A stretch of 64,000 nt of DNA from a phage: the sequence record PV357172.2. The stretch is one strand, 5' to 3'. The notes under the pieces were generated by a model. It saw only the letters and a program-made list of their open reading frames with translations. It was not told the origin of the DNA and did not search any database. The translations under genes and the position numbers were made by a program. Shown piece by piece: positions 4,635-57,983 of this stretch. Positions within the stretch are counted from its first letter, which is position 1; each line of letters begins with the position of its first letter.

Positions 4635-6103
4635 ATATCGCTGGCCTGTTCACCTGTTGAATTTTCAGCTTTGTCTTTCTTAGCACGTTTAGGTTGAGCC
4701 GGCTTATCCTTCTCAATAGGGATAACGAACTCAGCTTCCATTTGAGATATATCTTCCATTGCTAGGTTGGTAGTGTTATCCATCTGCAGGGTTTCCCAGT
4801 TCATCTTAGGCATAAACTTCACGCTATCAGAAGAACGGGTCTTAACGAAGTCAAACATAATAGCACCTTGACCATTATCAGCTTTTGCAGCATTAAGATT
4901 AGCAGCCATGTCTGCGGAATCAAGAATCCCCTTTGACATACGTGTTCTACCATCTTGATCGATCTGGTAAGGAGCTACTCCAGCCACGTTATGTTTCTGG
5001 CAGATGGATTTGAAAGATGAACTAACAACCATCTGTTCTTTCCAGTCATACATATCAATGGTCTTTGAATCTGGAAGTCTTGTTTGGTTAATATAGTCTA
5101 GAAGAGCTACAGTAACCTTATCACCATATTTAGCAACTAGTTTATTTAATTCTACGTCAACCGTCGTAATAGACAGTTCAGGATCGTAAACGATGATCAT
5201 AGGAGTGTGAAGCTCATAGCCTTCAAGGAGTTTACTTTCCATATCATAGAAGTCACTCATTTTAGCCATAGTGTATTGCTTAACGAAGTTATCGAAAAGC
5301 TCTTCACCACCATTAAACATTCTAGCCCTAGTTCTGGCTAATCTCAACAGAGCAGCACCTTCAAGAGTGTTATTACGCATTGCTAATGCAGATACTCCAG
5401 CTAACATAGCCAGATTACGTCTAAACACTTCGTGCTCTTTCATCTCAATTGAGAAATATGGAGCAATGTCTCCATTCAAATATTGCTGAACCTGTATGTT
5501 TGAACAGATAATGGATTTACCAGTACCACGCCAACCACCAAGCAGTAACGTTTCTGTGCGAGCTAAACCAATTTGAGCGTCGAACTCATTACAAATACCA
5601 AGAGCGATTAAGTTCAGTTTGGTATCTTCTTCTCTCTGGAAAATACGCATTGTGTCTGCGTTGAATACCTTTCCAGTATTCGTTACTTTCTCTTCTAATT
5701 TTAAGTGAAGGGAGGCAACTCGGTTGAGAATTTCTCCCTGATCCAGCATTGTTAAATCTTGAAGCACGTCTGTTTCTAGAAGCTTCAGGAATAAATCCTG
5801 TGTATATTCGGCCTCTAGGACTTCAAGTGCCTGTTCCATGCTAACTTCTGGAATTTGAGTGTTAGCTAAAACGACTAGAGCTTGAGAAAGGCGGGCGTTC
5901 CTATTAGCCTCAAGCATCAGTGCGTCAATGGATGGCATTGTGTTATATTTTTTATAATAATTCTGGACGGCTTGGTAAATTGAGGAGAAAGCGTCATTAA
6001 AATGATCTTTATGCAGTTTTGAGAATGTTTCCAATGCTATTTGCTTCTGTTCGGAAGCTAGAAGCATCTTCAACACTACAGCTTGCACGTTAAACAAGGT
6101 CAT
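4631..6103 (-). CDS. replicative helicase-like P-loop ATPase (DnaB/RecA fold)
   Basis: Walker A GGWRGTGKS; start moved to ATG at 6103 preceded by AAAGGAGA. Confidence 0.55.
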   Translation of the reverse strand: MTLFNVQAVVLKMLLASEQKQIALETFSKLHKDHFNDAFSSIYQAVQNYYKKYNTMPSIDALMLEANRNARLSQALVVLANTQIPEVSMEQALEVLEAEYTQDLFLKLLETDVLQDLTMLDQGEILNRVASLHLKLEEKVTNTGKVFNADTMRIFQREEDTKLNLIALGICNEFDAQIGLARTETLLLGGWRGTGKSIICSNIQVQQYLNGDIAPYFSIEMKEHEVFRRNLAMLAGVSALAMRNNTLEGAALLRLARTRARMFNGGEELFDNFVKQYTMAKMSDFYDMESKLLEGYELHTPMIIVYDPELSITTVDVELNKLVAKYGDKVTVALLDYINQTRLPDSKTIDMYDWKEQMVVSSSFKSICQKHNVAGVAPYQIDQDGRTRMSKGILDSADMAANLNAAKADNGQGAIMFDFVKTRSSDSVKFMPKMNWETLQMDNTTNLAMEDISQMEAEFVIPIEKDKPAQPKRAKKDKAENSTGEQASDI

Positions 6104-46944: not shown

Positions 46945-47017
46945 AGTTAGTTGGCAGAGTGGTTATGCACCTCCTTCATACGGAGCGACTACAGTGGTTC
47001 AAATCCACTACTAACTA
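46945..47017 (+). tRNA. tRNA with CAT anticodon (Met or Ile2)
   Basis: Perfect acceptor AGTTAGT/ACTAACT, anticodon loop TTCATAC, T-arm AGTGG-TTCAAAT-CCACT, CCA. Confidence 0.6.
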
Positions 47018-47023
47018 CCAAAC

Positions 47024-47062
47024 AGAGGATCTGGTCATTGTACCAGATCTCTGTGTTTATTA
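47024..47062 (+). terminator. rho-independent terminator closing the tRNA cluster
   Basis: Hairpin GATCTGGT-CATTGT-ACCAGATC followed by TCTGTGTTTATT. Confidence 0.55.
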
Positions 47063-47203
47063 AACTGAATGGGACTATCAATCCACAAGCCGGACTACGA
47101 GCGATTATCGGGTATTCACTTAATAAACAGCCTGCCCCCCAGTTTTTATCTTGCTTCTGGGTTAACAAAAAGCTGAGCCAAATTCTAATATCAGGGAGAT
47201 CTA

Positions 47204-47572
47204 ATGAAAGCATATCAAAATCTTAAATCCGGCGTAATTAACCTTGTTCATGAAAATCAGATCATTCAGCTATACTCTAAAGACGGTGAACTTAAACAGA
47301 AAGTTCTAGTTGAAGATCTAGAAGGTATCACACCTCACTTTGACCCTGAAGCCTTTCGCATTGTAGATGTGGAAGTGGTTCCCCAAGTCGAGGGTGGTCA
47401 GCACCTAAATGTCAATGTGTTAAGCCGTGATCAGCTTTTAGATGCACAGAAACATCCTGAAAAATATCCTCAGTTGACCATCCGTGTCTCTGGCTATGCT
47501 GTTCGATTTAACGCATTGACGCGTGAACAACAGAACGACGTTATTAGTCGTACATTTACTCAGGCGATATAA
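47204..47572 (+). CDS. autonomous glycyl radical cofactor (GrcA/YfiD-like)
   Basis: C-terminal glycyl radical signature [29 protein letters not shown]; size 122 aa. Confidence 0.65.
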
Positions 47573-47653
47573 TGGGGTTTGGATACGATTTCTCCCAGCT
47601 ACGCAAGGTAGTCGAGCAAACTCCGTTTATCTCCCAAGTTTTAGGAGAAATGT

Positions 47654-47968
47654 GTGGATCGAGCATTAAGACGCCATCACCGGCAACGTGTGAAGAACAA
47701 CCGCAAGAAGTATTGGACAGTCTTTCCACATGAAGAAAGCCCTAAGCGATTAGGTATTATCACTACTACTCCTTGCATCTGTTCTTGCTGGATGTGTGGG
47801 AACCCTCGCAAATATTATAAGAATAGTAAAGCAGGTATGAAAACCTCGGAGATCAGGAAAATGGGAGCAATGATTATGGGCATCTCAAATGATGAATTTG
47901 ATGGCTTTGTAGGATTCGGAGAAGGAACTAGCTCAGGCTGTTTCGAATATGAACTCCCCGATCTGTGA
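47654..47968 (+). CDS. Cys-rich hypothetical protein (104 aa)
   Basis: ORF track (GTG start); my reading differs from the track by 2 nt here, so boundaries follow the track. Confidence 0.4.
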   Translation: MDRALRRHHRQRVKNNRKKYWTVFPHEESPKRLGIITTTPCICSCWMCGNPRKYYKNSKAGMKTSEIRKMGAMIMGISNDEFDGFVGFGEGTSSGCFEYELPDL

Positions 47969-48089
47969 TTAACAACAAACCCCAGCTATGGAATAAGTAG
48001 TCTGGGGTTTTTCTATATACAGGTAAATAATTTATGTATAATAAAATTCACCCACATTAGGTTAATTCAAAAGACTTAATGGAGGTAAT

Positions 48090-48437
48090 ATGAGCCGTAC
48101 TTATCGTAGACAAACTGGTGATCAGTGGTGGAAGTCTAAAGCTAATTACACCCAGGGGTATACTTTCCTCAAAGCAAGTGGCTACTGGATTCGTGTTATT
48201 TATGCTAAATCCTGGGATGATGTAGAACAGGAAATGAAGGAAGCAACTGTTCGTAATGAGAAAAAGGATGGTTATAACTGGAATTCTATTAGTAAGAATG
48301 TTAAGTGGCATTCTAATAAAATGGTTCGTCAAGGGAATCGTCAAGAACTCCACCGCGTGATGAAAGATCCAGAAAATTATGATTATAATCGCGATCATGA
48401 CATGCGTAAGCGTGGATTATGGTGGTGCTATGACTAA
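48090..48437 (+). CDS. hypothetical protein (115 aa)
   Basis: ATG at 48090 after GGAGGTAAT. Confidence 0.5.
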   Translation: MSRTYRRQTGDQWWKSKANYTQGYTFLKASGYWIRVIYAKSWDDVEQEMKEATVRNEKKDGYNWNSISKNVKWHSNKMVRQGNRQELHRVMKDPENYDYNRDHDMRKRGLWWCYD

Positions 48438-48513
48438 ATTCTGAAATAATTCATTTGCTAAACCTCTCTTTTCTTGCTATAATATATTTATAAATTGATG
48501 AGAGAGGTTTGAA

Positions 48514-48795
48514 ATGAAAACTCGTCTAGACTGTGCTGTTCATGTTCTTGAACATGATGTTGTGGGAACCTGTATGTCTTACCACGAAGCAGGTCGTTTA
48601 ATTAAAGAACGTGTGGCAGATGTGTGCGGATTGAAGATTACTGCTGAGGAAGCTGATGATCTTTTAGGTCAAGCACTAGAGAAAACCGAAATGTTTCTCT
48701 GCGATTCTTGTTCTTGGTGGTGTGAAGCTCACGAACGTTCTTTCAACGATTATGATGTATGTCGTGATTGTAGTGGGGAGGATGAAGATGAATAA
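48514..48795 (+). CDS. Cys-rich small protein with acidic tail (93 aa)
   Basis: Promoter module upstream; CDSCSWWC...CRDC motifs; tail GEDEDE. Confidence 0.5.
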   Translation: MKTRLDCAVHVLEHDVVGTCMSYHEAGRLIKERVADVCGLKITAEEADDLLGQALEKTEMFLCDSCSWWCEAHERSFNDYDVCRDCSGEDEDE

Positions 48796-49087
48796 GTTTA
48801 TTATTGCACTGATGATCTCCGCAGTTAGTTTCGGTTCTCTGGCATCTACCAAAGTTTCTATGAAAAATGGTAATGTTAAAGTCCAACAGAACGGCATTAT
48901 TACTGAGTATGGTAAAGTTCGTGATGTTAAGGAACGTAACGGCAGAGTAGAAATATATACTAATAAAAACTTCTCTACTCCGGCTGTTACTGTTAGCAAA
49001 CGTGGTGAGATAACTACTCAACGTACTAATAGCTCTAGTTCTTTTACTTGTCGTTATGATTGCGACTTTGAAGGTGAAGATGAATAA
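48782..49087 (+). CDS. secreted small protein (about 101 aa)
   Basis: ATG after GGGGAGG; signal-peptide-like MKMNKFIIALMISAVSFGSLAS; tail FEGEDE. Confidence 0.45.
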   Translation: MKMNKFIIALMISAVSFGSLASTKVSMKNGNVKVQQNGIITEYGKVRDVKERNGRVEIYTNKNFSTPAVTVSKRGEITTQRTNSSSSFTCRYDCDFEGEDE

Positions 49088-49475
49088 TTTAGATCCTAGA
49101 ATTAAATTTGCAATTACAGAAATCCAAGATCAAATTGATGAGGATTTCACTGTTTGGTCAAGGTCTGGTAATGGAGAATATTGCCAGCTTTATAGCATGA
49201 AAATGGGTATCTCAATTGAGCTTAATATCAACTCTGAAGGTAGAGTAGAAGCCCAACCCATGTTCAGTGTTCCAGGCTTCTCTGGGTTTGTTGCGGGTAT
49301 GAAATTATGCCTACCAAATAACCATCTTCATCGAGTTATTTGTCAGCTAGAGACTATTAAGCATTTCTTGCCAGAAGATAATATTAATGACTACTATCAT
49401 GAAGTTGTAGCAGCTCATATGATGAAAGAATGCAAACGTCGGAGAGAAGAGCGTGAAAAAGCTAAACATCAATAG
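49080..49475 (+). CDS. hypothetical protein (about 131 aa)
   Basis: ATG at 49080 after GAAGGTGAAG; overlaps upstream stop. Confidence 0.45.
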   Translation: MNNLDPRIKFAITEIQDQIDEDFTVWSRSGNGEYCQLYSMKMGISIELNINSEGRVEAQPMFSVPGFSGFVAGMKLCLPNNHLHRVICQLETIKHFLPEDNINDYYHEVVAAHMMKECKRRREEREKAKHQ

Positions 49476-49749
49476 CACAGTGCAGATTCCAGCAACTAAG
49501 GACATCTTAACATTCCTGCGTAGTGAGAATGCACAATTTTGGCATGATCATGTTACAAAGAATGGTAGCACTCCAGATGTAGTTGCCTTTGCTAAAAAAC
49601 GTATCGAGGAGTATAAAGATCCAGAGATTAAAGATGGCATGATTACTATGCAGTTGTGGGTAGCTATGCAAACTTTTGGCCCCACCATGTGTTTAGGAAA
49701 TACTCCATTATTTACAAATATTTTAATTAATGAAAAGGATCTGAAATGA
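49453..49749 (+). CDS. hypothetical protein (98 aa)
   Basis: GTG start after GGAGAGAAGAGC. Confidence 0.4.
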   Translation: MKKLNINSTVQIPATKDILTFLRSENAQFWHDHVTKNGSTPDVVAFAKKRIEEYKDPEIKDGMITMQLWVAMQTFGPTMCLGNTPLFTNILINEKDLK

Positions 49750-50030
49750 TTGTTTCTCCATTTGCTCTTTGGTTCGTCATTGGATCTGTGGTTGCTATTT
49801 ACAGTCTAATAGATGATTTATTCATCTCCAAGAATAAAGATGTAATATTATACGTTATACATAAAACTCGACCGTTAGATCTGCCACCTCTTGATGACAA
49901 AACATTACTCAGATGTGCTAGATCTGTGATATTTATTGTGGATATTCTTCTAGGCCCAACATCTGTGTTTTTCTTTTATAGAAAAACTCGTAATATGAAA
50001 AAATTTAAAGCTGAAATGCAGAATACTTAA
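49746..50030 (+). CDS. small membrane protein (94 aa)
   Basis: Hydrophobic N-terminus; ATGA overlap with upstream gene. Confidence 0.45.
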   Translation: MIVSPFALWFVIGSVVAIYSLIDDLFISKNKDVILYVIHKTRPLDLPPLDDKTLLRCARSVIFIVDILLGPTSVFFFYRKTRNMKKFKAEMQNT

Positions 50031-50140
50031 AGAACTCGCGTAGGACCGAGTTGCGTCACCTGCAACTGTTACGGATAAGGGAGTCGTGCCCCTTAGTGCG
50101 GTAAGTGGTGAGGTGGCTGCTAGCCCTAACTGGAGATAAT

Positions 50141-50485
50141 ATGACTATATTACTAATTCTTGTTACAACTTGGTTTTTAATCGGTGCTGGATATGCAATA
50201 GCTATTATTAGACATTTGGATGAACATTCTGCTGAATGGTTTGTTAAATATCTACGCATTGATGATCAAGAACAGAAGTTTAAAGATGAAAAGCAGAAAA
50301 AAGCAGTAAATAATATGACAGCCAAAGAATGCTTGTTCTACATGCGTATTGTAGGGTTCTTTGGACTATTAGTTGCTGGCCCAATTGGTTCTACCATTGC
50401 TCCATATAAAGAAACAGTTGCTGACATCAAGTTGTGGAGAAATGCAGGGGTACTACGCAAAGCTAGAGAAACTAATATTACATAA
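50141..50485 (+). CDS. small membrane protein (about 114 aa)
   Basis: ATG at 50141 after CTGGAGATAAT; predicted TM helices. Confidence 0.45.
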   Translation: MTILLILVTTWFLIGAGYAIAIIRHLDEHSAEWFVKYLRIDDQEQKFKDEKQKKAVNNMTAKECLFYMRIVGFFGLLVAGPIGSTIAPYKETVADIKLWRNAGVLRKARETNIT

Positions 50486-50527
50486 GATTGACACTAAGTC
50501 AGCTTACTAGCAAAAGCAAATAATGAC

Positions 50528-50570
50528 AAAGCCCAGCCTGCACTTTTGCGACTGGGCTATTTTTATAATA
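50528..50570 (+). terminator. rho-independent terminator
   Basis: Hairpin GCCCAGCC...GACTGGGC followed by TATTTTTA. Confidence 0.45.
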
Positions 50571-50639
50571 AAATTTTAGTTGCTTAGATGCCCAAACTTT
50601 TGTATAATATGTTTATAGATTGAGGCAAGAGGATTAAAT

Positions 50640-51338
50640 ATGAGGATTATTTCTAAGTTCGCCGATGTGTATGATTTGCAGAACAGTTTGTTCGACCCAG
50701 ATCGTGTGTGGGAACGTAAAACTGAGGAGTTGCTGGTTAAAGTAACCGATGATGCAGAAAAGAATATTGTGCATACTCGCCAGGTATTTCGTGATGGTTC
50801 GCTATCTTTCCGTGGTGATTTCGAATACTTCGTAAACCCCCTATTTGTTGCAGGTGAAGTTTACTGGTTACATGAGCTGTACTGCTGGCATCCAGCATTT
50901 AGCTTCAAAACGTTCGACCTCGACACTATGTTCGATAAAATGGAAGAGATGGGATTGCATGCTCGCTCTTACTTAATGGATAAGAGTCGTGGAGATGTTC
51001 GTGAAACAATGCGTGATCTGCTCGCTGAAGCAAAACCTAAAGCAGAACGTATCTTATCCGAACTGCGTGTACCGATTGCATATGTGAAAGGTATTAAAAA
51101 GAACGATAACGATGATGTTCGTAACTTCGTAATTCAGACTAACATTCGTTTCCATCAGTCCGGTATTCCGTGGCAGGAAATTGAAAGTAACTTATACCGT
51201 TTACACCAAGTTCTCGAACAGTATATCTTCGGTGTACTAGGAACTGGTGAGCCTGATATGATTAAAGTATCAGATAAAGACAGGTTAGCAGCGCATGGAT
51301 TTGATACAAAAACTTCTTTCAGGAATATGGCACGGTAA
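50640..51338 (+). CDS. hypothetical protein (232 aa)
   Basis: Promoter module and GAGGATTAAAT leader upstream. Confidence 0.5.
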   Translation: MRIISKFADVYDLQNSLFDPDRVWERKTEELLVKVTDDAEKNIVHTRQVFRDGSLSFRGDFEYFVNPLFVAGEVYWLHELYCWHPAFSFKTFDLDTMFDKMEEMGLHARSYLMDKSRGDVRETMRDLLAEAKPKAERILSELRVPIAYVKGIKKNDNDDVRNFVIQTNIRFHQSGIPWQEIESNLYRLHQVLEQYIFGVLGTGEPDMIKVSDKDRLAAHGFDTKTSFRNMAR

Positions 51339-51744
51339 GTGGTATATCCTGGGAGCAGGTCTAGCGATAGGCATCGGGTTCGGTGCTTATCACTTAGTAG
51401 ATAAAGTGGAGACTTTAGCAGGAGATCTTGCGGTAGCTACTAAAAAGATTTCTTCTCTAGAGACTTCCCTCAATAAGGTGAAAGCTGAAAGCGAACTTCG
51501 TGAGACTAGAATGAATCAGTATTTCACAATGAATAATATTTTGCAAGCAGATCTAGACAAAAAGATTAAGCAGTTAGACAAAGCTCTTAGTCGCCAAGAT
51601 ATTATAGCTGCAAAGCCTGGATTGGTAACATTAATTGCTAAAAAGCAGAGTAAAGAGTTCGAGGAAAGATTAGCGTGTTTAACTGGAAACTTGGAATACT
51701 GCTCGCAGCCGCAATCACAATCACAGGCTGTGCAGAAGAAATAA
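51295..51744 (+). CDS. putative i-spanin (inner-membrane spanin component)
   Basis: N-terminal TM WYILGAGLAIGIGFGAYHLV followed by coiled coil; overlaps downstream lipoprotein gene; start uncertain. Confidence 0.45.
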   Translation: MDLIQKLLSGIWHGKWYILGAGLAIGIGFGAYHLVDKVETLAGDLAVATKKISSLETSLNKVKAESELRETRMNQYFTMNNILQADLDKKIKQLDKALSRQDIIAAKPGLVTLIAKKQSKEFEERLACLTGNLEYCSQPQSQSQAVQKK

Positions 51745-52028
51745 AACCAGAGCCATCTCATGAGTTAAAGCAAGCTCATGTAGACTGGCCTAAAGGACTT
51801 CAGCCTTGTAGCTTTGATTTCAAATTCGAAAAGAAATTAGCTACAAATGGCGAAGATGGCGTAGTAGTTGTTGTACCATATAAAGATTGGAATGCAAAAG
51901 CAAAATGTGAGGAAGCAGTTTACTCTTACATTTCACGACTGACTGGTATGGTCTGCTTCTATCGTCAAGATTTACAAGAAAAACGTTGCTTAGTTTACTA
52001 TCCACCCATTACAAATAGGAAAGATTAA
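51675..52028 (+). CDS. putative o-spanin (outer-membrane lipoprotein)
   Basis: Signal peptide with lipobox ITGC (LLAAAITITGCAEE); overlaps 3' end of preceding gene in another frame. Confidence 0.5.
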   Translation: MFNWKLGILLAAAITITGCAEEIKPEPSHELKQAHVDWPKGLQPCSFDFKFEKKLATNGEDGVVVVVPYKDWNAKAKCEEAVYSYISRLTGMVCFYRQDLQEKRCLVYYPPITNRKD

Positions 52029-52699
52029 TGTCAGTATTAGTCGGTTTACATGGTGAAGCTGGTTCGGGAAAAGATACCGTTGCAAAATTAATTATCGATT
52101 GGTGTAATGACACGTATCCAACGTGTTTACCCCGTCGTTACAGTTTTGCTAAGCCCGTTTATGAACTTGCATCCGTAATCCTCGGTGTAACTCCAGAGTT
52201 TCTAGGAGAGCGCAGGGGAAAAGAGATTGATCAATGGTTTACGGTCACACAATCTCAATTGGAGCGAGCCAGAGATGTGTGGTTTAAGTACGGTATCGAT
52301 AAGTTTGAAGACTTCTCGTACGTTTGGCCTATTTTTGAGGAAAAATATCTTAATCCCCAACAACTTATCTCAGAGAGTAAAGAAGACGGACTTTATAGTT
52401 TATTTATTTCTCCGAGAAAAATGTTACAGCTCGTAGGAACAGAGCTAGGAAGGCAGCTGGTGCATGAACGCATTTGGCTCATAATTCTGGAGCAATCCAT
52501 CGCTAAAGACGACCCAGACGTCGCCGTAATAACAGATGTTAGATTCCCCAATGAAGGAAAGCTACTCAGAGAAACAAACCATTTAGATATGGATTCTTTG
52601 ATAGTAAATGTAGTACCGCTGAGCAGAAGTTTACTATTAAATCAGATCATCCATCTGAAAGTGGTATTCCTGCAAATATATTACTCACGAATTAGTTAA
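52028..52699 (+). CDS. deoxynucleoside monophosphate kinase-like P-loop kinase
   Basis: N-terminal P-loop GLHGEAGSGKDTVAKL. Confidence 0.55.
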   Translation: MSVLVGLHGEAGSGKDTVAKLIIDWCNDTYPTCLPRRYSFAKPVYELASVILGVTPEFLGERRGKEIDQWFTVTQSQLERARDVWFKYGIDKFEDFSYVWPIFEEKYLNPQQLISESKEDGLYSLFISPRKMLQLVGTELGRQLVHERIWLIILEQSIAKDDPDVAVITDVRFPNEGKLLRETNHLDMDSLIVNVVPLSRSLLLNQIIHLKVVFLQIYYSRIS

Positions 52700-52790
52700 T
52701 AAATTCGATGGTATCAATAACCTTAAACTAGAAGTTTATAACTTCTGTGACTTAGAGCTAGAACCACTAGTTGGATAATCAAGGATCGCT

Positions 52791-53390
52791 ATGACTAATA
52801 AAAAAGAAGAAAAGACTAACCTGTTTCACTCCATTCGCCAATCTAACGAGTATACCTTTTTCTTTGATGAAGAGTTAGGCCCGCCGGATGAATACCGTGA
52901 TTTATCAATGGTACTTATGCAGGCACATGAGGACGACGAAATTAATCTGATGATTAATGGCCCGGGTGGTTATGTTGATACTGCTGCACAGTTATCTAAC
53001 TTAATTGCTAATTGCCGTGGAACAGTTATAGGACACCTGATTGGTCCTAGTGCTTCTGCTTACTGCACAATTTTCCTATCCTGTCATGGATGGGTAGTAC
53101 ATCCACATGCTACGCTAATGGGACACACGTTCTCTGGCGGATTCTGTGAGAAGGGTCAAGAAATCAAGAAAGCCTATGAATCTTACAACAAGTTCGTAGA
53201 AGATATGATGCTAGATGTCTACTATCCGTTCTTCTCAATAGACGAAATCGACGAGATGGTAAAAGACAACAAAAATATCTATCTAGATAGCAAAGAAATC
53301 CATAAGCGTATTGAAATCTTGGCAAAATATCGATCTGAGCAATATAATAAAGCCCAGTTACCTCAATCAGAGGAGCATAACGAAGAGTAA
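52791..53390 (+). CDS. ClpP-like (S14 family) serine peptidase
   Basis: ClpP-like core INGPGGYVDTA...IGPSASAYCTIF...HPHATLMGH. Confidence 0.45.
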   Translation: MTNKKEEKTNLFHSIRQSNEYTFFFDEELGPPDEYRDLSMVLMQAHEDDEINLMINGPGGYVDTAAQLSNLIANCRGTVIGHLIGPSASAYCTIFLSCHGWVVHPHATLMGHTFSGGFCEKGQEIKKAYESYNKFVEDMMLDVYYPFFSIDEIDEMVKDNKNIYLDSKEIHKRIEILAKYRSEQYNKAQLPQSEEHNEE

Positions 53391-53401
53391 GTAATTTTAA
53401 G

Positions 53402-53436
53402 CCAGGGTTTAACGACCCTGGCTTTTCTTTTATCTA
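53402..53436 (+). terminator. rho-independent terminator
   Basis: Hairpin GCCAGGGTT-TAACGA-CCCTGGC followed by TTTTCTTTT. Confidence 0.6.
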
Positions 53437-53546
53437 AAATTCTTCTTGACAACGACAAAATTTTATGCTCCAGAAGTGATCTTTAAAAACACATTGTAAT
53501 TTTCCTCCAAAATTAGTATAATGGTACTGGTTAGAGGAGGTTACAA

Positions 53547-54203
53547 TTGGAAAAGTTCTTACAATTATTAACGGTACTGCTCCAAGAAGCGAAAGATCCA
53601 GCATCGCTTCTTAAACGTCTGCTAACTATCTTAGTTGCTGTCATTATTTTCTTATTTGTTAGTAATACTAGCGAGGTGATGTCATTCTTAAAGACTTTCT
53701 CCACGTCTGCGGTTCTACAGGATGTTCAAACTCAAAGGATAGATAACTTTCCTAATGTAGCTAGAGAAAAGAGCATGGTACTTTTTTCTCAAACGGGTGC
53801 GGATGCTGTTTTTGTCGTCAAGTATAAACCAGATGCTATTAATGATTATTCTAACATTATTGCATGGGAAAGCAATGCGCAATTAGATAGGGCTGACTTG
53901 GCCGATAAAGCGGTAAATAAAACGTCTGAGCTATATAGACGTCACTTGGAGGGCTTTAACTACGCATCGGATTTAAGTGTAAAAGTAAATAAATACATGG
54001 GGTTAAATATACCTGCGTTTAAGAACGTTACTTTTAATTACATATACACTTGTCCGTATTTCAATCTAAACAATATCTATGCTGGATATATTGGTATTGC
54101 TTGGAAAGATAACCCTGTAGATGCAGCCGATTCTGAGAAATTTAAGGAATATTTAACAAAGCTCTGTTCACCACAACAGAGATCTTTAGGTAGATCAATA
54201 TGA
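53547..54203 (+). CDS. putative T-type holin (single N-terminal TM, large periplasmic domain)
   Basis: 218 aa, one TM (LLTILVAVIIFLFV); TTG start after GAGGAGGT; immediately precedes endolysin with ATGA overlap. Confidence 0.5.
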   Translation: MEKFLQLLTVLLQEAKDPASLLKRLLTILVAVIIFLFVSNTSEVMSFLKTFSTSAVLQDVQTQRIDNFPNVAREKSMVLFSQTGADAVFVVKYKPDAINDYSNIIAWESNAQLDRADLADKAVNKTSELYRRHLEGFNYASDLSVKVNKYMGLNIPAFKNVTFNYIYTCPYFNLNNIYAGYIGIAWKDNPVDAADSEKFKEYLTKLCSPQQRSLGRSI

Positions 54204-54613
54204 GTTTTAAATTTGGTAAAAATAGCGAAAAACAATTAGCTACCGTTAAGCCAGAGCTACAAAAAGTAGCTCGTAGAGCTTTAGAATTATCTCCATATGA
54301 TTTCACGATCGTACAAGGTATTCGTACAGTAGCACAAAGTGCCCAGAATATTGCTAATGGTACTTCATTTTTAAAAGATCCTAGTAAAAGTAAGCATATT
54401 ACTGGGGATGCCCTTGATTTTGCTCCATACATTAATGGCAAAATTGATTGGAATGACTTAGAAGCATTTTGGGCAGTTAAAAAGGCTTTTGAACAGGCCG
54501 GTAAAGAACTAGGCGTTAAACTTCGTTTTGGTGCTGATTGGAATGCTTCGGGAGATTATCACGATGAAATAAAACGTGGTACCTATGATGGCGGTCATGT
54601 CGAACTAGTTTAA
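54200..54613 (+). CDS. endolysin, zinc L-alanyl-D-glutamate peptidase (M15 family)
   Basis: 137 aa; metal-binding motifs SKHITGDALDF and DGGHVE. Confidence 0.7.
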   Translation: MSFKFGKNSEKQLATVKPELQKVARRALELSPYDFTIVQGIRTVAQSAQNIANGTSFLKDPSKSKHITGDALDFAPYINGKIDWNDLEAFWAVKKAFEQAGKELGVKLRFGADWNASGDYHDEIKRGTYDGGHVELV

Positions 54614-54623
54614 TTAATAACTG

Positions 54624-54648
54624 AGGCGGGAATACTCCCGCCTTTTTA
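54624..54648 (+). terminator. rho-independent terminator
   Basis: Hairpin GGCGGGA-ATAC-TCCCGCC followed by TTTTT. Confidence 0.65.
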
Positions 54649-54690
54649 GGCAAAGGGGGCTTTAATAATTTTTAAAGATAGGAGAAAGCC

Positions 54691-55107
54691 ATGTTTGCAG
54701 AACTATTCACTATGATGCTGCTAGGTATCTGGAAAATAAGTCTAGTAGTATTCGTTTTAATGATAGTCTTTACTATCCTTGCATTAACTACCCGAAATAG
54801 CTTATTAATAAAGGTTATTCACGGACTAGAGTATATAATTATGGGTTCATTCGGCGTTTGTAAATGCAATTGCCATAGAGATACGAAATATTGTTGGTTA
54901 TGGATGGAACTAGAGAATCCTATATCCATAGCTTTGGCTGTTTCATTCGGTATGATTCTTATGGCCCTTACTCTAGCATTAATACCTTTGATGTTAGCTG
55001 GGGGAGTTACAGCGTATTTCACCCTTTTCTCCCCGATACTTATGTACTCAATTTACCCAATAACTATGTATCTAGTTAGGAAAAGATTTATACATGCAGT
55101 AGATTAA
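54691..55107 (+). CDS. multi-pass membrane protein (138 aa)
   Basis: ATG after AGGAGAAAGCC; three to four hydrophobic segments. Confidence 0.45.
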   Translation: MFAELFTMMLLGIWKISLVVFVLMIVFTILALTTRNSLLIKVIHGLEYIIMGSFGVCKCNCHRDTKYCWLWMELENPISIALAVSFGMILMALTLALIPLMLAGGVTAYFTLFSPILMYSIYPITMYLVRKRFIHAVD

Positions 55108-55182
55108 GATAAAAAAGTAGTTGACTTTTAGCCCTAGTTATTATATAATATATACATAAATTAGTTAAGAGAGGTATATATT

Positions 55183-55614
55183 ATGTCTGATCGTTTCTAT
55201 ACTCAAATGGCGGAACATTTTCGTATACCACATTACGAGCTAAACATTGCACTCCGTGATCATGACTCTCCTGAGTACAAAAAGCTCGAAAAGAAAGCGG
55301 AAAAATCTATTGATACAAAGGTAGGTGCATCTATGTCTAAGGGCAAAAAGTTAACTCGTCTTGATCTTAATAAAATTTTAACTGAACTTTTGGGTACTGA
55401 TATTGAAGGTGCTAAATTACCGCTTCTTGTACTAGAGACTATGATTAAAAAGGTCAAAAATAAAGAGTATAAAAAGGTAGAAGTCCCAGAAGGCAGATTG
55501 AAAGCTCCTTATCAGGAGGCATTAACCGAGTGTTTGGGTGTAAATCTTGATCTAAGCACCGCAACCGTAAAAACTATGAGAAACTTCTTAGAGGCCATTA
55601 ATAACTATGAGTAA
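55183..55614 (+). CDS. hypothetical protein (143 aa)
   Basis: TTGACT/TATAAT promoter upstream; GAGAGG RBS. Confidence 0.5.
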   Translation: MSDRFYTQMAEHFRIPHYELNIALRDHDSPEYKKLEKKAEKSIDTKVGASMSKGKKLTRLDLNKILTELLGTDIEGAKLPLLVLETMIKKVKNKEYKKVEVPEGRLKAPYQEALTECLGVNLDLSTATVKTMRNFLEAINNYE

Positions 55615-55897
55615 ATTAGTATATCTATTAAAAGGTTCCACCTGTAACCCGTGTAAACTTTTCGAGCCAGTATTTGATAAAGTAGTCAATGAATATAATT
55701 TGGAAGTCCATAAAGAGACTGATAATACAGAATTAATGCAGAAATTTGGCGTACGCCAAGTTCCTGTAGTAGTTCTGGCGGATCGCTTACCTAATGGTCG
55801 AGTAGAAGCTAATCATATTTTGATTGGACGTCAGCTTCGTAAAGAAACTATGCACGAAGCTATTAAAAATTTCCTGGATGATAATCCAGAGGATTAA
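55607..55897 (+). CDS. thioredoxin/glutaredoxin-like redoxin
   Basis: CxxC active-site-like CNPC near N-terminus; 96 aa. Confidence 0.5.
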   Translation: MSKLVYLLKGSTCNPCKLFEPVFDKVVNEYNLEVHKETDNTELMQKFGVRQVPVVVLADRLPNGRVEANHILIGRQLRKETMHEAIKNFLDDNPED

Positions 55898-55928
55898 TAA
55901 ACCAAGCCTGATCTTAGCGGATCAGGCT
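55894..55928 (+). terminator. rho-independent terminator
   Basis: Hairpin AAGCCTGATC-TTAGCG-GATCAGGCTT followed by TTATTTT. Confidence 0.6.
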
Positions 55929-55994
55929 TTTATTTTACTTGCTTTCAGCTAAAAATTTTGGTATAATACTTATATAAATTGATAGGAGGATTAA

Positions 55995-56240
55995 ATGTTA
56001 GCGGAACAAGCAAAACGTTTAGCTAGGATAAATAGAGCCGCGTCCCTCAAGAGCCGAAAGAAAACGTATAGATGGGTTAAGCGGAGGATAGTATCTTCTG
56101 TCGAGATTGGAGGTTCTTTTGTACAGCTTAATCGTGACGAAATTAGTTATGAAGCTATAAAAGCCCTCAATAAAGAGGGTTATACTCTCAAACTATCAAA
56201 TAATTATGGTACAACTATTTTAAATGTTATTTGGGAATAA
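55995..56240 (+). CDS. hypothetical protein (81 aa)
   Basis: Promoter module upstream; GGAGGATTAA RBS. Confidence 0.45.
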   Translation: MLAEQAKRLARINRAASLKSRKKTYRWVKRRIVSSVEIGGSFVQLNRDEISYEAIKALNKEGYTLKLSNNYGTTILNVIWE

Positions 56241-56242
56241 TT

Positions 56243-57106
56243 ATGAAAAAAGAATTTAATGTGCATAAAACACTAGTAGTACCTGATGATGTTAACTTAT
56301 TCTTTGTTGGTGATATTCATGGATGCAACGATTTACTAGAAGATGCACTACAATTAGCTGGCTATAACGGCAAGAAAGATTGCGTTGTATGCGTGGGAGA
56401 TTTAATTGATCGAGGCACGCAGAACCTACAAGTTTTAGCCAAATTCCTGTATAATCCACGCTTTATCAGTGTACGTGGTAATCATGACCAATTTATGATT
56501 GTGGGAGATTGGGCTAACTGGATGTATAACGGTGGTATGTGGGCCATGAATGAACTAGATGCAGATACCATTAAAAATATTGCTGAAGACATGGCTGAAA
56601 AAATGCCAGTATTTCTGACTGTATTGCATCGTGGTAAAAAGTATGGTGTTGTTCATGGTGGTGTACCTTTTACGTACAAAGAATGCGGTAACGAAGTAGA
56701 AACCCCAGTATGGGATAGCCTTATTGCACAAGTAGAAGCAGCTAAGGAAGACCCACATGACCATCCTGGATACCATGTTGAGCCATACTTATGGGATCGA
56801 GATGTAATCCAAGAAATAGGTTTTCACTTAGCTAAAAATGGTGAAGAACACTCACATTTCCAGCGTTATGCAGGGTTTAAAGAGAAATACATGGTAGAAG
56901 TACCTCCGGTTAATGGAGTAGACTTTGTATTTCATGGGCATACCGGAGTACCTTACCCGATTTTATACCAGAACCGTGTTTACCTAGATACTGGCGGTGT
57001 TTTCAACGGGCAGTTGACGGTTGCGCAGGTTAACGATGAAACTGGCAAAATCACCACATTTACCACAGACAAAAATGATAGCTGCGGTGTACAGAGGATC
57101 CTTTAA
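56243..57106 (+). CDS. Ser/Thr protein phosphatase (calcineurin-like metallophosphoesterase)
   Basis: Motifs GDIHG, GDLIDRG, GNHD; ATG at 56243. Confidence 0.7.
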   Translation: MKKEFNVHKTLVVPDDVNLFFVGDIHGCNDLLEDALQLAGYNGKKDCVVCVGDLIDRGTQNLQVLAKFLYNPRFISVRGNHDQFMIVGDWANWMYNGGMWAMNELDADTIKNIAEDMAEKMPVFLTVLHRGKKYGVVHGGVPFTYKECGNEVETPVWDSLIAQVEAAKEDPHDHPGYHVEPYLWDRDVIQEIGFHLAKNGEEHSHFQRYAGFKEKYMVEVPPVNGVDFVFHGHTGVPYPILYQNRVYLDTGGVFNGQLTVAQVNDETGKITTFTTDKNDSCGVQRIL

Positions 57107-57393
57107 TGAATGATAGAATGAAAGAAGTACAAGAAGAATTACGAGCAATGCGTATTGATGCCCTTCGTTGGAGGGCATTAGTTAATGCTTTCGTCAAAGG
57201 AGATACCGGAGTAATATATTCTGGAATAGCAGTCAATTTTTGTTTTAATTCTCCTGCTGAAATAGAGATAGAAACAAGGCTTACTACCTACCTTAATGAG
57301 GTAGACCTTAAGGAAGGAGAGACTCCCGAGGAGTTTAAAACTAGAGTATTAACTACCTGGGTTGATAATTTAATACAAAAAAGGAGTAAGTGA
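57106..57393 (+). CDS. hypothetical protein (95 aa)
   Basis: ORF track; start and stop overlaps with neighbours. Confidence 0.4.
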   Translation: MNDRMKEVQEELRAMRIDALRWRALVNAFVKGDTGVIYSGIAVNFCFNSPAEIEIETRLTTYLNEVDLKEGETPEEFKTRVLTTWVDNLIQKRSK

Positions 57394-57983
57394 TGAAGGT
57401 TAAATTCTGGTCAGACTTGCACTTAGACCACCCTGGAGCACTACGTTTCCGTCCGTGGTTTAAGAACATGAAAGAGCACGATGAGTATATTCTAGATACT
57501 TTGTCCAAGCATATTGGTAAACGAACAAAACTTATTTTGCTAGGAGATATTGCAGTAGGTCGTGAAGGTCTGGCCAAATTAAAGTCGGTTATCCACAATG
57601 TCCCTAATCAACTCATTATGGGTAATCATGATGCGGAGCGTCAAGGACTGAGTATTAGGGACTTAGCGGAAGTTTATGATGATATTCAGGCTCTAGGTAA
57701 ACAGACTGGAGGTGGCAAAAAGTTTTGGCTATCTCACTGCCCTTTGCATCCCAATGAACTTCGTGGCAAACTAAATATTCATGGACACGTACATACTACT
57801 TCTCTACGTGATCCACGTTATATCAATGTTTCATTTGAAATGAGTAAAACTCCAATTCCTCTAGAGGATATTGTGTCTGGTAAGTTTACTAGCTATGATA
57901 AAGTAGTTAATTGTACTACCGGCGAGGTATTACAAATAGGGGAAGACGTAGCTGCTGTATTACGTGGGGATATAAATGTCTGA
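57393..57983 (+). CDS. calcineurin-like metallophosphoesterase (second copy)
   Basis: Motifs DLHLDHP, GDIAVG, GNHD, GHVH; ATG at 57393 after AAGGAG. Confidence 0.6.
   Translation: MKVKFWSDLHLDHPGALRFRPWFKNMKEHDEYILDTLSKHIGKRTKLILLGDIAVGREGLAKLKSVIHNVPNQLIMGNHDAERQGLSIRDLAEVYDDIQALGKQTGGGKKFWLSHCPLHPNELRGKLNIHGHVHTTSLRDPRYINVSFEMSKTPIPLEDIVSGKFTSYDKVVNCTTGEVLQIGEDVAAVLRGDINV

What the first reader, a model, noticed from the sequence alone, without database searches (positions are those of the whole stretch)
51295..54613. Lysis functions split: overlapping spanin pair about 2 kb upstream of the holin-endolysin pair
A TM-plus-coiled-coil ORF overlaps a lipobox-bearing lipoprotein ORF in another frame (spanin-like), separated by dNMP kinase and a ClpP-like peptidase from a T-type holin and an M15 endolysin that sit behind a different TTGACA-type promoter. 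The multi-pass membrane protein at 54691-55107 after the endolysin terminator may be an accessory lysis regulator.
Basis: partly seen in the sequence, partly recalled or inferred. Interest (0 to 1): 0.4.

Follow-up and report, generated by a model that had tools for sequence, protein, structure and literature searches.

The report
T5-type spanins, holin and endolysin
This is the ordinary, already described cell-bursting gene set of a T5-like phage: two overlapping genes for the complex that breaks the outer membrane, lying two genes upstream of the pore-former and cell-wall enzyme genes.

Summary
The window is a T5-like phage (Tequintavirus; 99% DNA identity to Salmonella phage MET_P1_100_107).

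ORF 51295-51744 is the T5.045-type inner-membrane spanin subunit (i-spanin). ORF 51675-52028 is the T5.044-type outer-membrane lipoprotein subunit (o-spanin). They overlap by 70 nt in different frames. That figure is exactly what Kongari et al. 2018 report for the T5 spanin family.

Both proteins are homologous to T4 PseT.3/PseT.2, a pair shown to complement a lambda Rz/Rz1 defect. The two cysteines essential in PseT.2 are conserved here.

The order spanins, dNMP kinase, ClpP-like protease, terminator, promoter, T-type holin, M15 endolysin is the same in T5, Sugarlandvirus, Serratia phage Kamaji and Novosibvirus. Many GenBank records already annotate it this way.

The 4-TM protein after the endolysin is the T5.039 family, confined to T5-like phages. 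It has no detectable homology to anything characterised and is absent from that position in two related genera. A lysis-regulator role remains pure speculation.

Side finding: the dNMP kinase gene in this window carries two single-base homopolymer deletions.

The parts
50530..50566 (+). Terminator-like hairpin (AGCCCAG...CTGGGCT) plus T run. It closes the preceding unit.
   Evidence: Read from the sequence. T5 annotates a terminator at the equivalent place upstream of T5.047.
50580..50608 (+). Probable early sigma-70 promoter of the spanin-containing unit: TTGCTT-17-TATAAT.
   Evidence: Read from the sequence. T5 annotates a promoter immediately upstream of T5.047. Inferred, not tested.
50640..51338 (+). 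First gene of the unit, a T5.047 homologue of unknown function. Its end overlaps the i-spanin start by 44 nt.
   Evidence: PHROG 4243, unknown function. It sits upstream of the spanins in T5 (hegF lies between them there), Sugarland and Kamaji.
51295..51744 (+). i-spanin (T5.045 / T4 PseT.3 family), 149 aa. It has an N-terminal transmembrane segment (about 16-35), a long periplasmic helix, the conserved AxKPGL motif (residues 105-110) and a C-terminal C128-x7-C136 motif.
   Evidence: PHROG 739, E 2e-37; T4 PseT.3, E 2e-5.
51675..52028 (+). o-spanin (T5.044 / T4 PseT.2 family), 117 aa. It has a signal peptide with lipobox ITG|C19 and Ala at +2. The mature protein has a linker, a beta-hairpin and a long helix. 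Cysteines are C45, C78, C94 and C105.
   Evidence: PHROG 812, E 3.5e-30; T4 PseT.2, E 2e-7.
51675..51744 (+). 70-nt dual-coding overlap. It encodes the i-spanin C-terminus (ACLTGNLEYCSQPQSQSQAVQKK) in one frame and the o-spanin signal peptide and lipobox in another.
   Evidence: The same 70-bp overlap is reported for T5 in PMC6139136.
52028..52780 (+). dNMP kinase gene (dnk). In this window it is interrupted by two 1-nt deletions, after 52615 and after 52673. The longest ORF ends at 52699.
52791..53390 (+). ClpP-like peptidase (T5.042 homologue). The residues that align with the ClpP catalytic Ser and His are Ser and His.
53399..53424 (+). Intrinsic terminator that ends the spanin/dnk/Clp unit. 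It has an 11-bp stem, -18.5 kcal/mol, followed by a T run.
   Evidence: z = -6.0. Conserved in four genera. Annotated in T5 and Sugarland.
53446..53451 (+). TTGACA hexamer, invariant in four genera, with no recognisable -10 at 16-18 nt. Its role is unknown.
53494..53522 (+). Probable promoter of the holin-endolysin operon: TTGTAA-17-TATAAT.
   Evidence: It coincides with T5's annotated promoter.
53547..54203 (+). Class III (T-type) holin, 218 aa, TTG start, single transmembrane segment.
   Evidence: PF11031, E 8e-114; 96% identical to T5 T5.041.
54200..54613 (+). Endolysin, an M15C L-alanyl-D-glutamate peptidase (EndoT5 type). It overlaps the holin stop by 4 nt.
   Evidence: PDB 2MXZ/8P3A, E 1.8e-90.
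54623..54644 (+). Terminator hairpin after the endolysin, 9 bp, followed by a T run.
   Evidence: T5 annotates a terminator here.
54691..55107 (+). Four-transmembrane protein (T5.039 homologue) with a conserved FGV-x2-C-x-C...C loop. Function unknown. There is no evidence that it belongs to the lysis system.

Best explanation
The region holds the standard lysis genes of a T5-like phage (Demerecviridae), arranged in two adjacent early-type transcription units.

Unit 1 (about 50580-53424):
- A T5.047-like protein of unknown function.
- The i-spanin, with an N-terminal membrane anchor in the inner membrane and a long helical periplasmic domain.
- The o-spanin. It would be lipidated at Cys19 and, because Ala rather than Asp is at +2, sorted to the inner leaflet of the outer membrane.
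- dNMP kinase.
- A ClpP-like peptidase.

Unit 2 (about 53494-54644):
- A class III T-type holin.
- A soluble M15C L-alanyl-D-glutamate endopeptidase.

Inferred mechanism, by homology with T4 and lambda:
1. The two spanin subunits bind through their C-terminal periplasmic parts. The complex crosses the periplasm through the peptidoglycan mesh and is held inactive by it.
2. When the holin triggers, it permeabilises the inner membrane and releases the endolysin.
3. The endolysin cuts the peptidoglycan cross-links.
4. The freed spanin complexes then disrupt the outer membrane, in the lambda model by fusing it with the inner membrane.
5. Disulfide-linked o-spanin dimers through C94 and C105 are probably required, as in T4 PseT.2.

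Shown here: sequence features, homology, synteny, and promoter/terminator motifs. Inferred: lipidation, complex formation, disulfides, timing, and function in lysis.
For: - Identity of the window: 455 phage records match, the best at 99.0%, all T5-like.
- Gene order is the same in T5 (T5.047 ... T5.039), Sugarland, Kamaji and Stubb.
- PHROG 739 and 812 'Rz-like spanin' match at E 2e-37 and 3.5e-30.
- BLASTP to T4 PseT.3 gives E 2e-5 and to PseT.2 gives E 2e-7. PseT.2 is the only significant T4-spanin tblastn hit in the whole window.
- A profile search returns 38 clusters spanning T5-like and T4-like phages. All carry the same precomputed Pfam family, PF26831, and several are named o-spanin or Rz-like spanin.
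- Conservation: the lipobox Cys is invariant and the WP motif is invariant. C94 and C105 are nearly invariant across 33 sequences.
- The o-spanin is the only lipobox ORF in 64 kb.
- Models: the i-spanin is one long helix over residues 2-100. The o-spanin has a signal helix, a linker, a beta-hairpin and a helix at 69-96, with mean pLDDT 79.6.
- Literature: PMC6139136 lists a T5 i-spanin family and a T5 o-spanin family and states that the T5 spanins overlap by 70 bp. It shows that T4 pseT.3/pseT.2 complement lambda RzamRz1am, and that both PseT.2 cysteines are essential.
- Holin: PF11031 at E 8e-114.
- Endolysin: PDB 2MXZ at E 1.8e-90.
- Terminators and promoters. T5's own annotation has them at the equivalent places.
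Against: - I found no paper that tests the T5-family pair itself. Function rests on roughly 28% identity to the tested T4 pair and on signal features.
- The i-spanin membrane segment is Gly-rich and only moderately hydrophobic (19-residue mean 1.55).
- The mature o-spanin is not proline-rich like lambda Rz1 (7 Pro in 99 residues). It matches the T4 type, not the lambda type.
- Promoters are consensus matches only. The total number of such matches in the region is no higher than in shuffled sequence (22 found against 24.0 expected). Their weight comes from conservation and from T5's annotation.
Confidence: 0.92

Rival explanations
1. The 4-TM protein at 54691-55107 is a lysis regulator. It would be an antiholin-like or holin-modulating factor for the T-type holin, expressed by read-through of the endolysin terminator.
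For: - It lies directly after the endolysin in Tequintavirus, Sugarlandvirus and Kamaji.
- In the window, T5 and Sugarland no promoter is visible between the terminator and its ribosome-binding site.
- It is a membrane protein with three invariant cysteines in one loop.
- No T4 RI or RIII homologue was found in the window, so the regulation of this T-type holin is unaccounted for.
Against: - It matches no Pfam or NCBIfam family, and its only PHROG match (phrog_5944) has unknown function.
- Its topology is unlike RI, which has one SAR domain and a periplasmic domain.
- A terminator separates it from the lysis operon, and Kamaji has a TTGCAT-17-TATAAT site in front of it.
- It is absent after the endolysin in Proteus phage Stubb and Vibrio phage Thalassa, which keep the T-type holin.
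- Synteny inside one phage family is not independent evidence.
- The window is only part of the genome, so the negative RI/RIII search is incomplete.
Confidence: 0.1
2. The lipoprotein is not a spanin subunit. It would be another phage lipoprotein, for example a receptor-blocking or superinfection-exclusion protein like T5 Llp, and the TM-helix protein would be unrelated to it.
For: - T5-like phages do encode another lipoprotein, Llp (mentioned in PMC4342426).
- The genes sit in an early unit with nucleotide-metabolism genes rather than next to the holin.
Against: - Both partners are homologous to the T4 pair that complements lambda Rz/Rz1, and the two essential cysteines are conserved.
- The pair stays adjacent or overlapping in every lineage examined.
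- T4's own spanin genes are also far from its holin and endolysin.
Confidence: 0.03
3. The split has a functional meaning. Spanins would be made earlier than, or regulated independently of, holin and endolysin, possibly with an additional early role together with the ClpP-like protease.
For: - Separate promoter and terminator elements bound the two units, and these elements are conserved across genera.
- The order spanins-dnk-Clp is kept even where the endolysin type has been replaced, as in Stubb.
Against: - Both promoters are of the same sigma-70 early type, so no difference in timing is evident from sequence.
- In Vibrio phage Thalassa dnk and Clp are not upstream of the holin.
- Conserved order within a family can be simple inheritance.
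Confidence: 0.1

Closest known systems
Phage T5 T5.045 / T5.044: the T5 two-component spanin family of Kongari et al. 2018 (PMC6139136), overlapped architecture
   Same: - 88% (i-spanin) and 91% (o-spanin) identity.
- The same 70-nt overlap.
- The same flanking genes, terminators and promoters.
   Different: - T5 has the HNH endonuclease gene hegF between T5.047 and the i-spanin. The window does not.
- The first roughly 12 residues of the i-spanin differ accordingly.
Phage T4 PseT.3 / PseT.2 spanins, which experimentally complement lambda Rz/Rz1
   Same: - Homologous proteins (E 2e-5 and 2e-7).
- Shared AxKPGL motif in the i-spanin.
- Shared lipobox, WP motif and the two essential C-terminal cysteines in the o-spanin.
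- The o-spanin is folded rather than proline-rich.
- The spanin genes are not next to the holin and endolysin.
   Different: - PMC6139136 classes the T4 gene pair as 'separated' architecture and the T5 pair as overlapped. The NC_000866 coordinates (pseT.2 135132-135431; pseT.3 135428-135781) put only a 4-nt stop/start overlap between the T4 genes, against 70 nt here.
- The T5-type i-spanin has a C-terminal extension with two cysteines that PseT.3 lacks.
- The T5-type o-spanin has an extra cysteine pair, C45/C78.
- In T4 the holin and the endolysin are also unlinked from each other.
Lambda Rz / Rz1
   Same: - A two-component spanin made of an inner-membrane type II protein and an outer-membrane lipoprotein.
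- The two genes share DNA in different frames.
   Different: - No detectable sequence similarity.
- Rz1 is fully embedded in Rz, short and proline-rich.
- Lambda's S-R-Rz/Rz1 genes are contiguous in one late transcript.
T4 gpt holin (class III) and T5 EndoT5 endolysin
   Same: - The holin matches PF11031 over its full length, is 218 aa and has one transmembrane segment.
- The endolysin is near-identical to PDB 2MXZ.
   Different: - No RI or RIII antiholin homologues were detected in this 64-kb window.
- The holin here sits behind a sigma-70 early-type promoter rather than a T4 late promoter. This is inferred.

Membership tests
Two-component spanin (i-spanin / o-spanin) | i-spanin: a single N-terminal transmembrane segment followed by a helical periplasmic domain with coiled-coil potential | tested here: met
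   - Uncharged segment W16-Y32, peak hydropathy 1.73.
- Heptad score unmatched in 2000 shuffles.
- AF2 helix over residues 2-100.
Two-component spanin (i-spanin / o-spanin) | o-spanin: type II signal peptide with a lipobox and its Cys, and no Asp at +2 (outer-membrane sorting) | tested here: met
   - MFNWKLGILLAAAITITG|C19-A20.
- The Cys is invariant in 33 homologues.
- It is the only such ORF in the window.
Two-component spanin (i-spanin / o-spanin) | The two genes are adjacent in embedded, overlapped or separated architecture | tested here: met
   - Overlapped by 70 nt in different frames.
- Adjacency holds in T5, Sugarland, Kamaji and Stubb.
T5 / T4 PseT.3-PseT.2 spanin family | Sequence homology of both partners to family members, including the tested T4 pair | tested here: met
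   - PHROG 739 and 812.
- BLASTP E 2e-5 and 2e-7.
- The profile search unites T5-like and T4-like o-spanins under PF26831.
T5 / T4 PseT.3-PseT.2 spanin family | Two C-terminal periplasmic cysteines of the o-spanin (essential in T4 PseT.2) | tested here: met
   C94 and C105 align with the T4 cysteines and are nearly invariant. Their essentiality in T4 comes from PMC6139136. Disulfide formation itself is not testable here.
Two-component spanin (i-spanin / o-spanin) | Function: required for outer-membrane disruption; complements lambda RzamRz1am | not testable with these tools
   Shown for T4 PseT.3/PseT.2. I found no test of the T5-family pair.
Two-component spanin (i-spanin / o-spanin) | The C-termini of the two subunits bind each other to span the periplasm | not testable with these tools
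   The structure tool folds one chain only and accepts only restricted inputs.
Class III (T4 gpt-type) holin | PF11031 domain; one transmembrane segment, N-in/C-out, with a large periplasmic C-terminal domain | tested here: met
   - PF11031 at E 8e-114, full length.
- One hydrophobic block at 17-48.
- 22-31% identity to T-even holins.
M15C L-alanyl-D-glutamate peptidase endolysin (EndoT5) | Sequence identity to the solved T5 enzyme | tested here: met
   - PDB 2MXZ/8P3A at E 1.8e-90 over residues 1-137.
- The Pfam Peptidase_M15_4 match alone is below its cut-off (23.2 against 25 bits).
Lambda-type contiguous lysis cassette (holin-endolysin-spanin in one transcript) | All lysis genes contiguous and co-transcribed | tested here: not met
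   Two unrelated genes, a strong terminator (z = -6.0) and a promoter lie between the spanins and the holin.
T4 antiholins RI / RIII (considered for the 4-TM protein) | Homology to RI or RIII; for RI, one SAR domain plus a periplasmic domain | tested here: not met
   - No tblastn hit better than E 1.6 anywhere in the window.
- The protein has four transmembrane segments according to T5's annotation and my hydropathy scan.

The most novel reading that the evidence does not exclude
The T5.039-family four-transmembrane protein has an invariant Cys-x-Cys...Cys loop and lies directly after the endolysin terminator in most enterobacterial T5-like phages. It could be an uncharacterised modulator of the T-type holin. 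That would help explain how a holin behind an early-type promoter delays lysis to the end of the cycle in a phage with no detected RI/RIII.
Probability: 0.08. Interest if true: 0.4.

Novelty: already known. Interest (0 to 1): 0.07.

Why it matters
There is little new biology here.

The practical value is for annotation. Automatic pipelines often miss the GTG-initiated, overlapping o-spanin gene, or label both spanin genes 'hypothetical' or both 'Rz-like spanin'. Examples: the closest relative, OQ383620, lacks the o-spanin call, and Kamaji lacks the i-spanin call.

The region also shows that a scattered or split lysis gene layout is the norm for the T4/T5 spanin lineage. The one open question nearby is how T5-type phages time a T-type holin that sits behind an early-type promoter.

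Tried and rejected
I repeated it with database hits.
- Foldseek of the o-spanin model against the PDB gave nothing at E <= 0.001, so no solved relative exists. A sequence search of the PDB was also empty.
- Permissive Pfam and NCBIfam scans of the 4-TM protein and the T5.047-like protein gave no family. The weak FtsL, MctB and LcrE hits to the i-spanin are far below their cut-offs. They overlap its membrane anchor and the helix that follows (residues 17-117), and I read them as non-specific.
- The large-database search with the 4-TM protein found only T5-like relatives of at least 74% identity.
- T4 RI, RI.1 and RIII against the window gave no hit. The window is not the whole genome.
- An Rfam scan of 47000-57500 at E <= 0.1 found nothing.
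- The repeat search of 50000-56000 found only short chance-level pairs.
- The 2024 paper on the T5 holin/endolysin operon (Chernyshov et al., cited in PMC12894885) is not held. I could not use its transcription data.
- I rejected the distal TTGACA as a conventional promoter, because no -10 hexamer follows at 16-18 nt.

Full report
**What the window is.** A 4.2-kb stretch around the finding matches 455 phage records. The best match is 99.0% (Salmonella phage MET_P1_100_107), and essentially all matches are T5-like Demerecviridae. The window's + strand corresponds to the - strand of the T5 reference in its early region. A block of 19 tRNA genes lies at 36-47 kb, and the 'early C region' follows it.

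**Checking the observation.**
- The 149-aa ORF at 51295-51744 has one uncharged, Gly/Ala-rich hydrophobic segment, W16 to about V35.
- That segment is followed by a strongly heptad-periodic stretch. None of 2000 shuffles reaches its score.
- A single-sequence AlphaFold model makes residues 2-100 one continuous helix.
- The 117-aa ORF at 51675-52028 starts with GTG, 9 nt after a GAGGA. It opens with MFNWKLGILLAAAITITG|CAEE, a textbook lipoprotein signal with Ala at +2.
- A strict lipoprotein-signal filter over all 890 candidate starts in six frames of the 64 kb returns only this ORF.
- The two ORFs overlap by 70 nt in different frames.

Between them and the holin lie a dNMP kinase and a ClpP-like peptidase. 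The holin is a full-length PF11031 T-type holin (E 8e-114). The endolysin is nearly identical to the solved T5 L-alanyl-D-glutamate peptidase (PDB 2MXZ, E 1.8e-90).

**What the pair is.** The two proteins hit PHROG 739 and 812, both labelled 'Rz-like spanin'. They are the orthologues of T5 T5.045 and T5.044 (88% and 91% identity).

T5's original annotation already noted similarity to T4 PseT.3/PseT.2. I confirmed this directly:
- i-spanin against PseT.3: 28% identity, E 2e-5, including the A-x-KPGL motif.
- o-spanin against PseT.2: 29% identity, E 2e-7.

A profile search of 5.8 billion proteins with five o-spanins returned 38 clusters from T5-like and T4-like phages. All carry the same precomputed Pfam family, PF26831, and several are named o-spanin. 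In a 33-sequence alignment:
- The lipobox Cys and a WP motif are invariant.
- C94 and C105 are nearly invariant.
- A further pair, C45/C78, occurs only in the Demerecviridae-type sequences.

The AlphaFold model of the o-spanin (mean pLDDT 79.6) shows a signal helix, an unstructured linker, a beta-hairpin and a long helix. This is a small folded domain like that predicted for T4 PseT.2, not a lambda Rz1-like proline-rich peptide. The mature protein has 7 Pro in 99 residues. No solved structure resembles it.

**What is already published.** Kongari et al. 2018 (PMC6139136) list a 'T5' i-spanin family and a 'T5' o-spanin family of ten phages each. They describe the architecture as overlapped and state that 'the T5 spanins overlap by 70 bp'. 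That is exactly the figure found here.

The same paper shows three things about T4:
- pseT.3/pseT.2 complement a lambda RzamRz1am lysis defect.
- Both PseT.2 cysteines are essential.
- The T4 spanin genes are not near its holin and endolysin.

Genome announcements for Shivani and Sugarland describe a 'T5-like lysis cassette' with holin, endolysin and both spanins. The OSYSP paper numbers them orf146/147 and orf150/151, that is, with two genes in between. Many GenBank records annotate the two genes as i-spanin and o-spanin.

**Synteny.** The order is T5.047-like, i-spanin, o-spanin, dnk, ClpP-like, terminator, holin, endolysin. It is the same in four lineages:
- T5.
- Klebsiella phage Sugarland.
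- Serratia phage Kamaji. Its i-spanin is unannotated but present at L006:5582-6076 and overlaps the o-spanin by 76 nt.
- Proteus phage Stubb, even though Stubb has a different endolysin.

Vibrio phage Thalassa keeps holin plus M15 peptidase but not dnk/Clp upstream.

**Transcription units (inferred from sequence).**
- Upstream of 50640 there is a hairpin with a T run (50530-50566) and then TTGCTT-17-TATAAT (50580-50608).
- After the ClpP-like gene there is a strong terminator at 53399-53424 (-18.5 kcal/mol, z = -6.0).
- Upstream of the holin, TTGTAA-17-TATAAT (53494-53522) is conserved in four genera. It coincides with T5's annotated promoter.
Its role is open.
- After the endolysin a 9-bp hairpin with a T run (54623-54644) is conserved through compensatory changes.

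The count of promoter-like matches in the region is no higher than in shuffles. The argument therefore rests on conservation and on T5's annotation, not on the scan. A 2024 paper on transcription and translation of the T5 holin/endolysin operon exists (cited in PMC12894885), but I could not read it.

**The 4-TM protein.** ORF 54691-55107 is the T5.039 homologue, annotated in T5 as 'contains four transmembrane domains'.
- It matches no Pfam or NCBIfam family, and its only PHROG match (phrog_5944) has unknown function.
- It is found only in T5-like phages.
- Orthologues down to 19% identity keep an FGV-x2-C-x-C...C loop.

In favour of a link to lysis there is only position, plus the lack of a visible promoter of its own in the window, T5 and Sugarland. 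Against it:
- A terminator separates it from the endolysin.
- Kamaji has a promoter-like site before it.
- Stubb and Thalassa lack it after the endolysin.

No T4 RI/RIII homologue is detectable in the window, but the window is not the whole genome. I rate the regulator idea at about 0.1.

**How it most likely works.** By homology with T4 and lambda (established knowledge, not shown here):
1. The i-spanin is anchored in the inner membrane. The o-spanin is anchored by its lipid in the inner leaflet of the outer membrane.
2. Their C-terminal periplasmic parts bind, and the complexes are caged by the peptidoglycan.
3. When the T-type holin triggers, the soluble endolysin reaches the wall and degrades it.
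4. The released spanin complexes disrupt the outer membrane.
5. The conserved C94/C105 suggest the T4-like requirement for disulfide-linked o-spanin dimers.
6. The Demerecviridae-specific C45/C78 pair and the i-spanin C128-x7-C136 motif suggest additional disulfides.

The i-spanin C128-x7-C136 motif is encoded in the same DNA as the o-spanin signal peptide.

**Verdict.** It is a correct re-discovery of the T5 spanin family and of the T5 gene order. Interest is low.

**Side observations.**
- The dnk gene in this window has two single-base deletions in homopolymer runs relative to all relatives examined. This is most simply an assembly error.
- The T5 nick-site motif GCGC is conserved inside dnk.
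- The ClpP-like protein has Ser and His at the positions that align with the ClpP catalytic Ser and His.

Noticed in passing
window 52615-52616 and 52673-52674 (dnk, 52028-~52780): There are two single-base deletions in homopolymer runs (CCC->CC and AAAA->AAA) relative to PQ488695. The closest relative, OQ383620, annotates an intact 753-nt gene. The deletions split the dNMP kinase over three frames, and the longest ORF stops at 52699. This is either an assembly error or a genuine pseudogene.
   Followed up: partly
window 52210-52213: The GCGC motif that T5's annotation marks as a major single-strand interruption (nick) site inside dnk is conserved here in the same context (gagaGCGCagg).
   Followed up: partly
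window 54691-55107: The T5.039-family 4-TM protein has three invariant cysteines (C59, C61, C68) in the loop after FGV. They are conserved down to 19% overall identity (Kamaji). No function is known, and the family is found only in T5-like phages.
   Followed up: partly
window 51675-51744: The i-spanin C-terminal motif C-x-T/S-G-N/D-x3-C is encoded in the same 70 nt as the o-spanin signal peptide and lipobox. It is still conserved in Tequintavirus, Sugarlandvirus, Kamaji and Novosibvirus. T4 PseT.3 lacks it.
   Followed up: partly
window 51807-51809 and 51906-51908 (o-spanin C45, C78): An extra cysteine pair is present in all Demerecviridae-type o-spanins examined and absent from all T4-type ones. 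This suggests an additional disulfide specific to this branch.
   Followed up: partly
window 53446-53451: A TTGACA hexamer is invariant in four genera, about 45 nt upstream of the -35 of the holin promoter, with a conserved TRTGnTCC 13 nt after it and no usable -10. It could be a second promoter of unusual form or a regulatory site.
   Followed up: partly
window 52791-53390: An early ClpP-like peptidase (T5.042 homologue) is co-transcribed with the spanins. It has Ser and His at the positions that align with the ClpP catalytic Ser and His. It is distinct from the prohead protease of the late region. Its substrate is unknown.
   Followed up: partly
window 51338/51295 junction, compared with L003 (T5) 5246-5743: T5 carries the HNH homing endonuclease gene hegF between T5.047 and the i-spanin. 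The window lacks it, and the first roughly 12 residues of the i-spanin differ between the two.
   Followed up: partly
L006 5582-6076 (Serratia phage Kamaji); L008 about 1176-1529 (Salmonella phage MET_P1_100_107): Spanin genes are missing from public annotations. Kamaji lacks its i-spanin call (164 aa, overlapping the o-spanin by 76 nt). MET_P1_100_107 lacks its o-spanin call.
   Followed up: yes
L011 5166-5672 (Proteus phage Stubb): Stubb keeps the spanins-dnk-Clp-holin order, but an unrelated 168-aa protein replaces the M15 endolysin. That protein is annotated as tail lysozyme-like with a transmembrane domain. This is an endolysin swap within a conserved frame.
   Followed up: no
L012 3852-4055 (Vibrio phage Thalassa gp153): A 67-aa ORF with a lipoprotein-like start (…LIISGC) lies just upstream of the holin. 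It is a possible spanin component in a T5-like Vibrio phage that lacks the dnk/Clp spacer.
   Followed up: no
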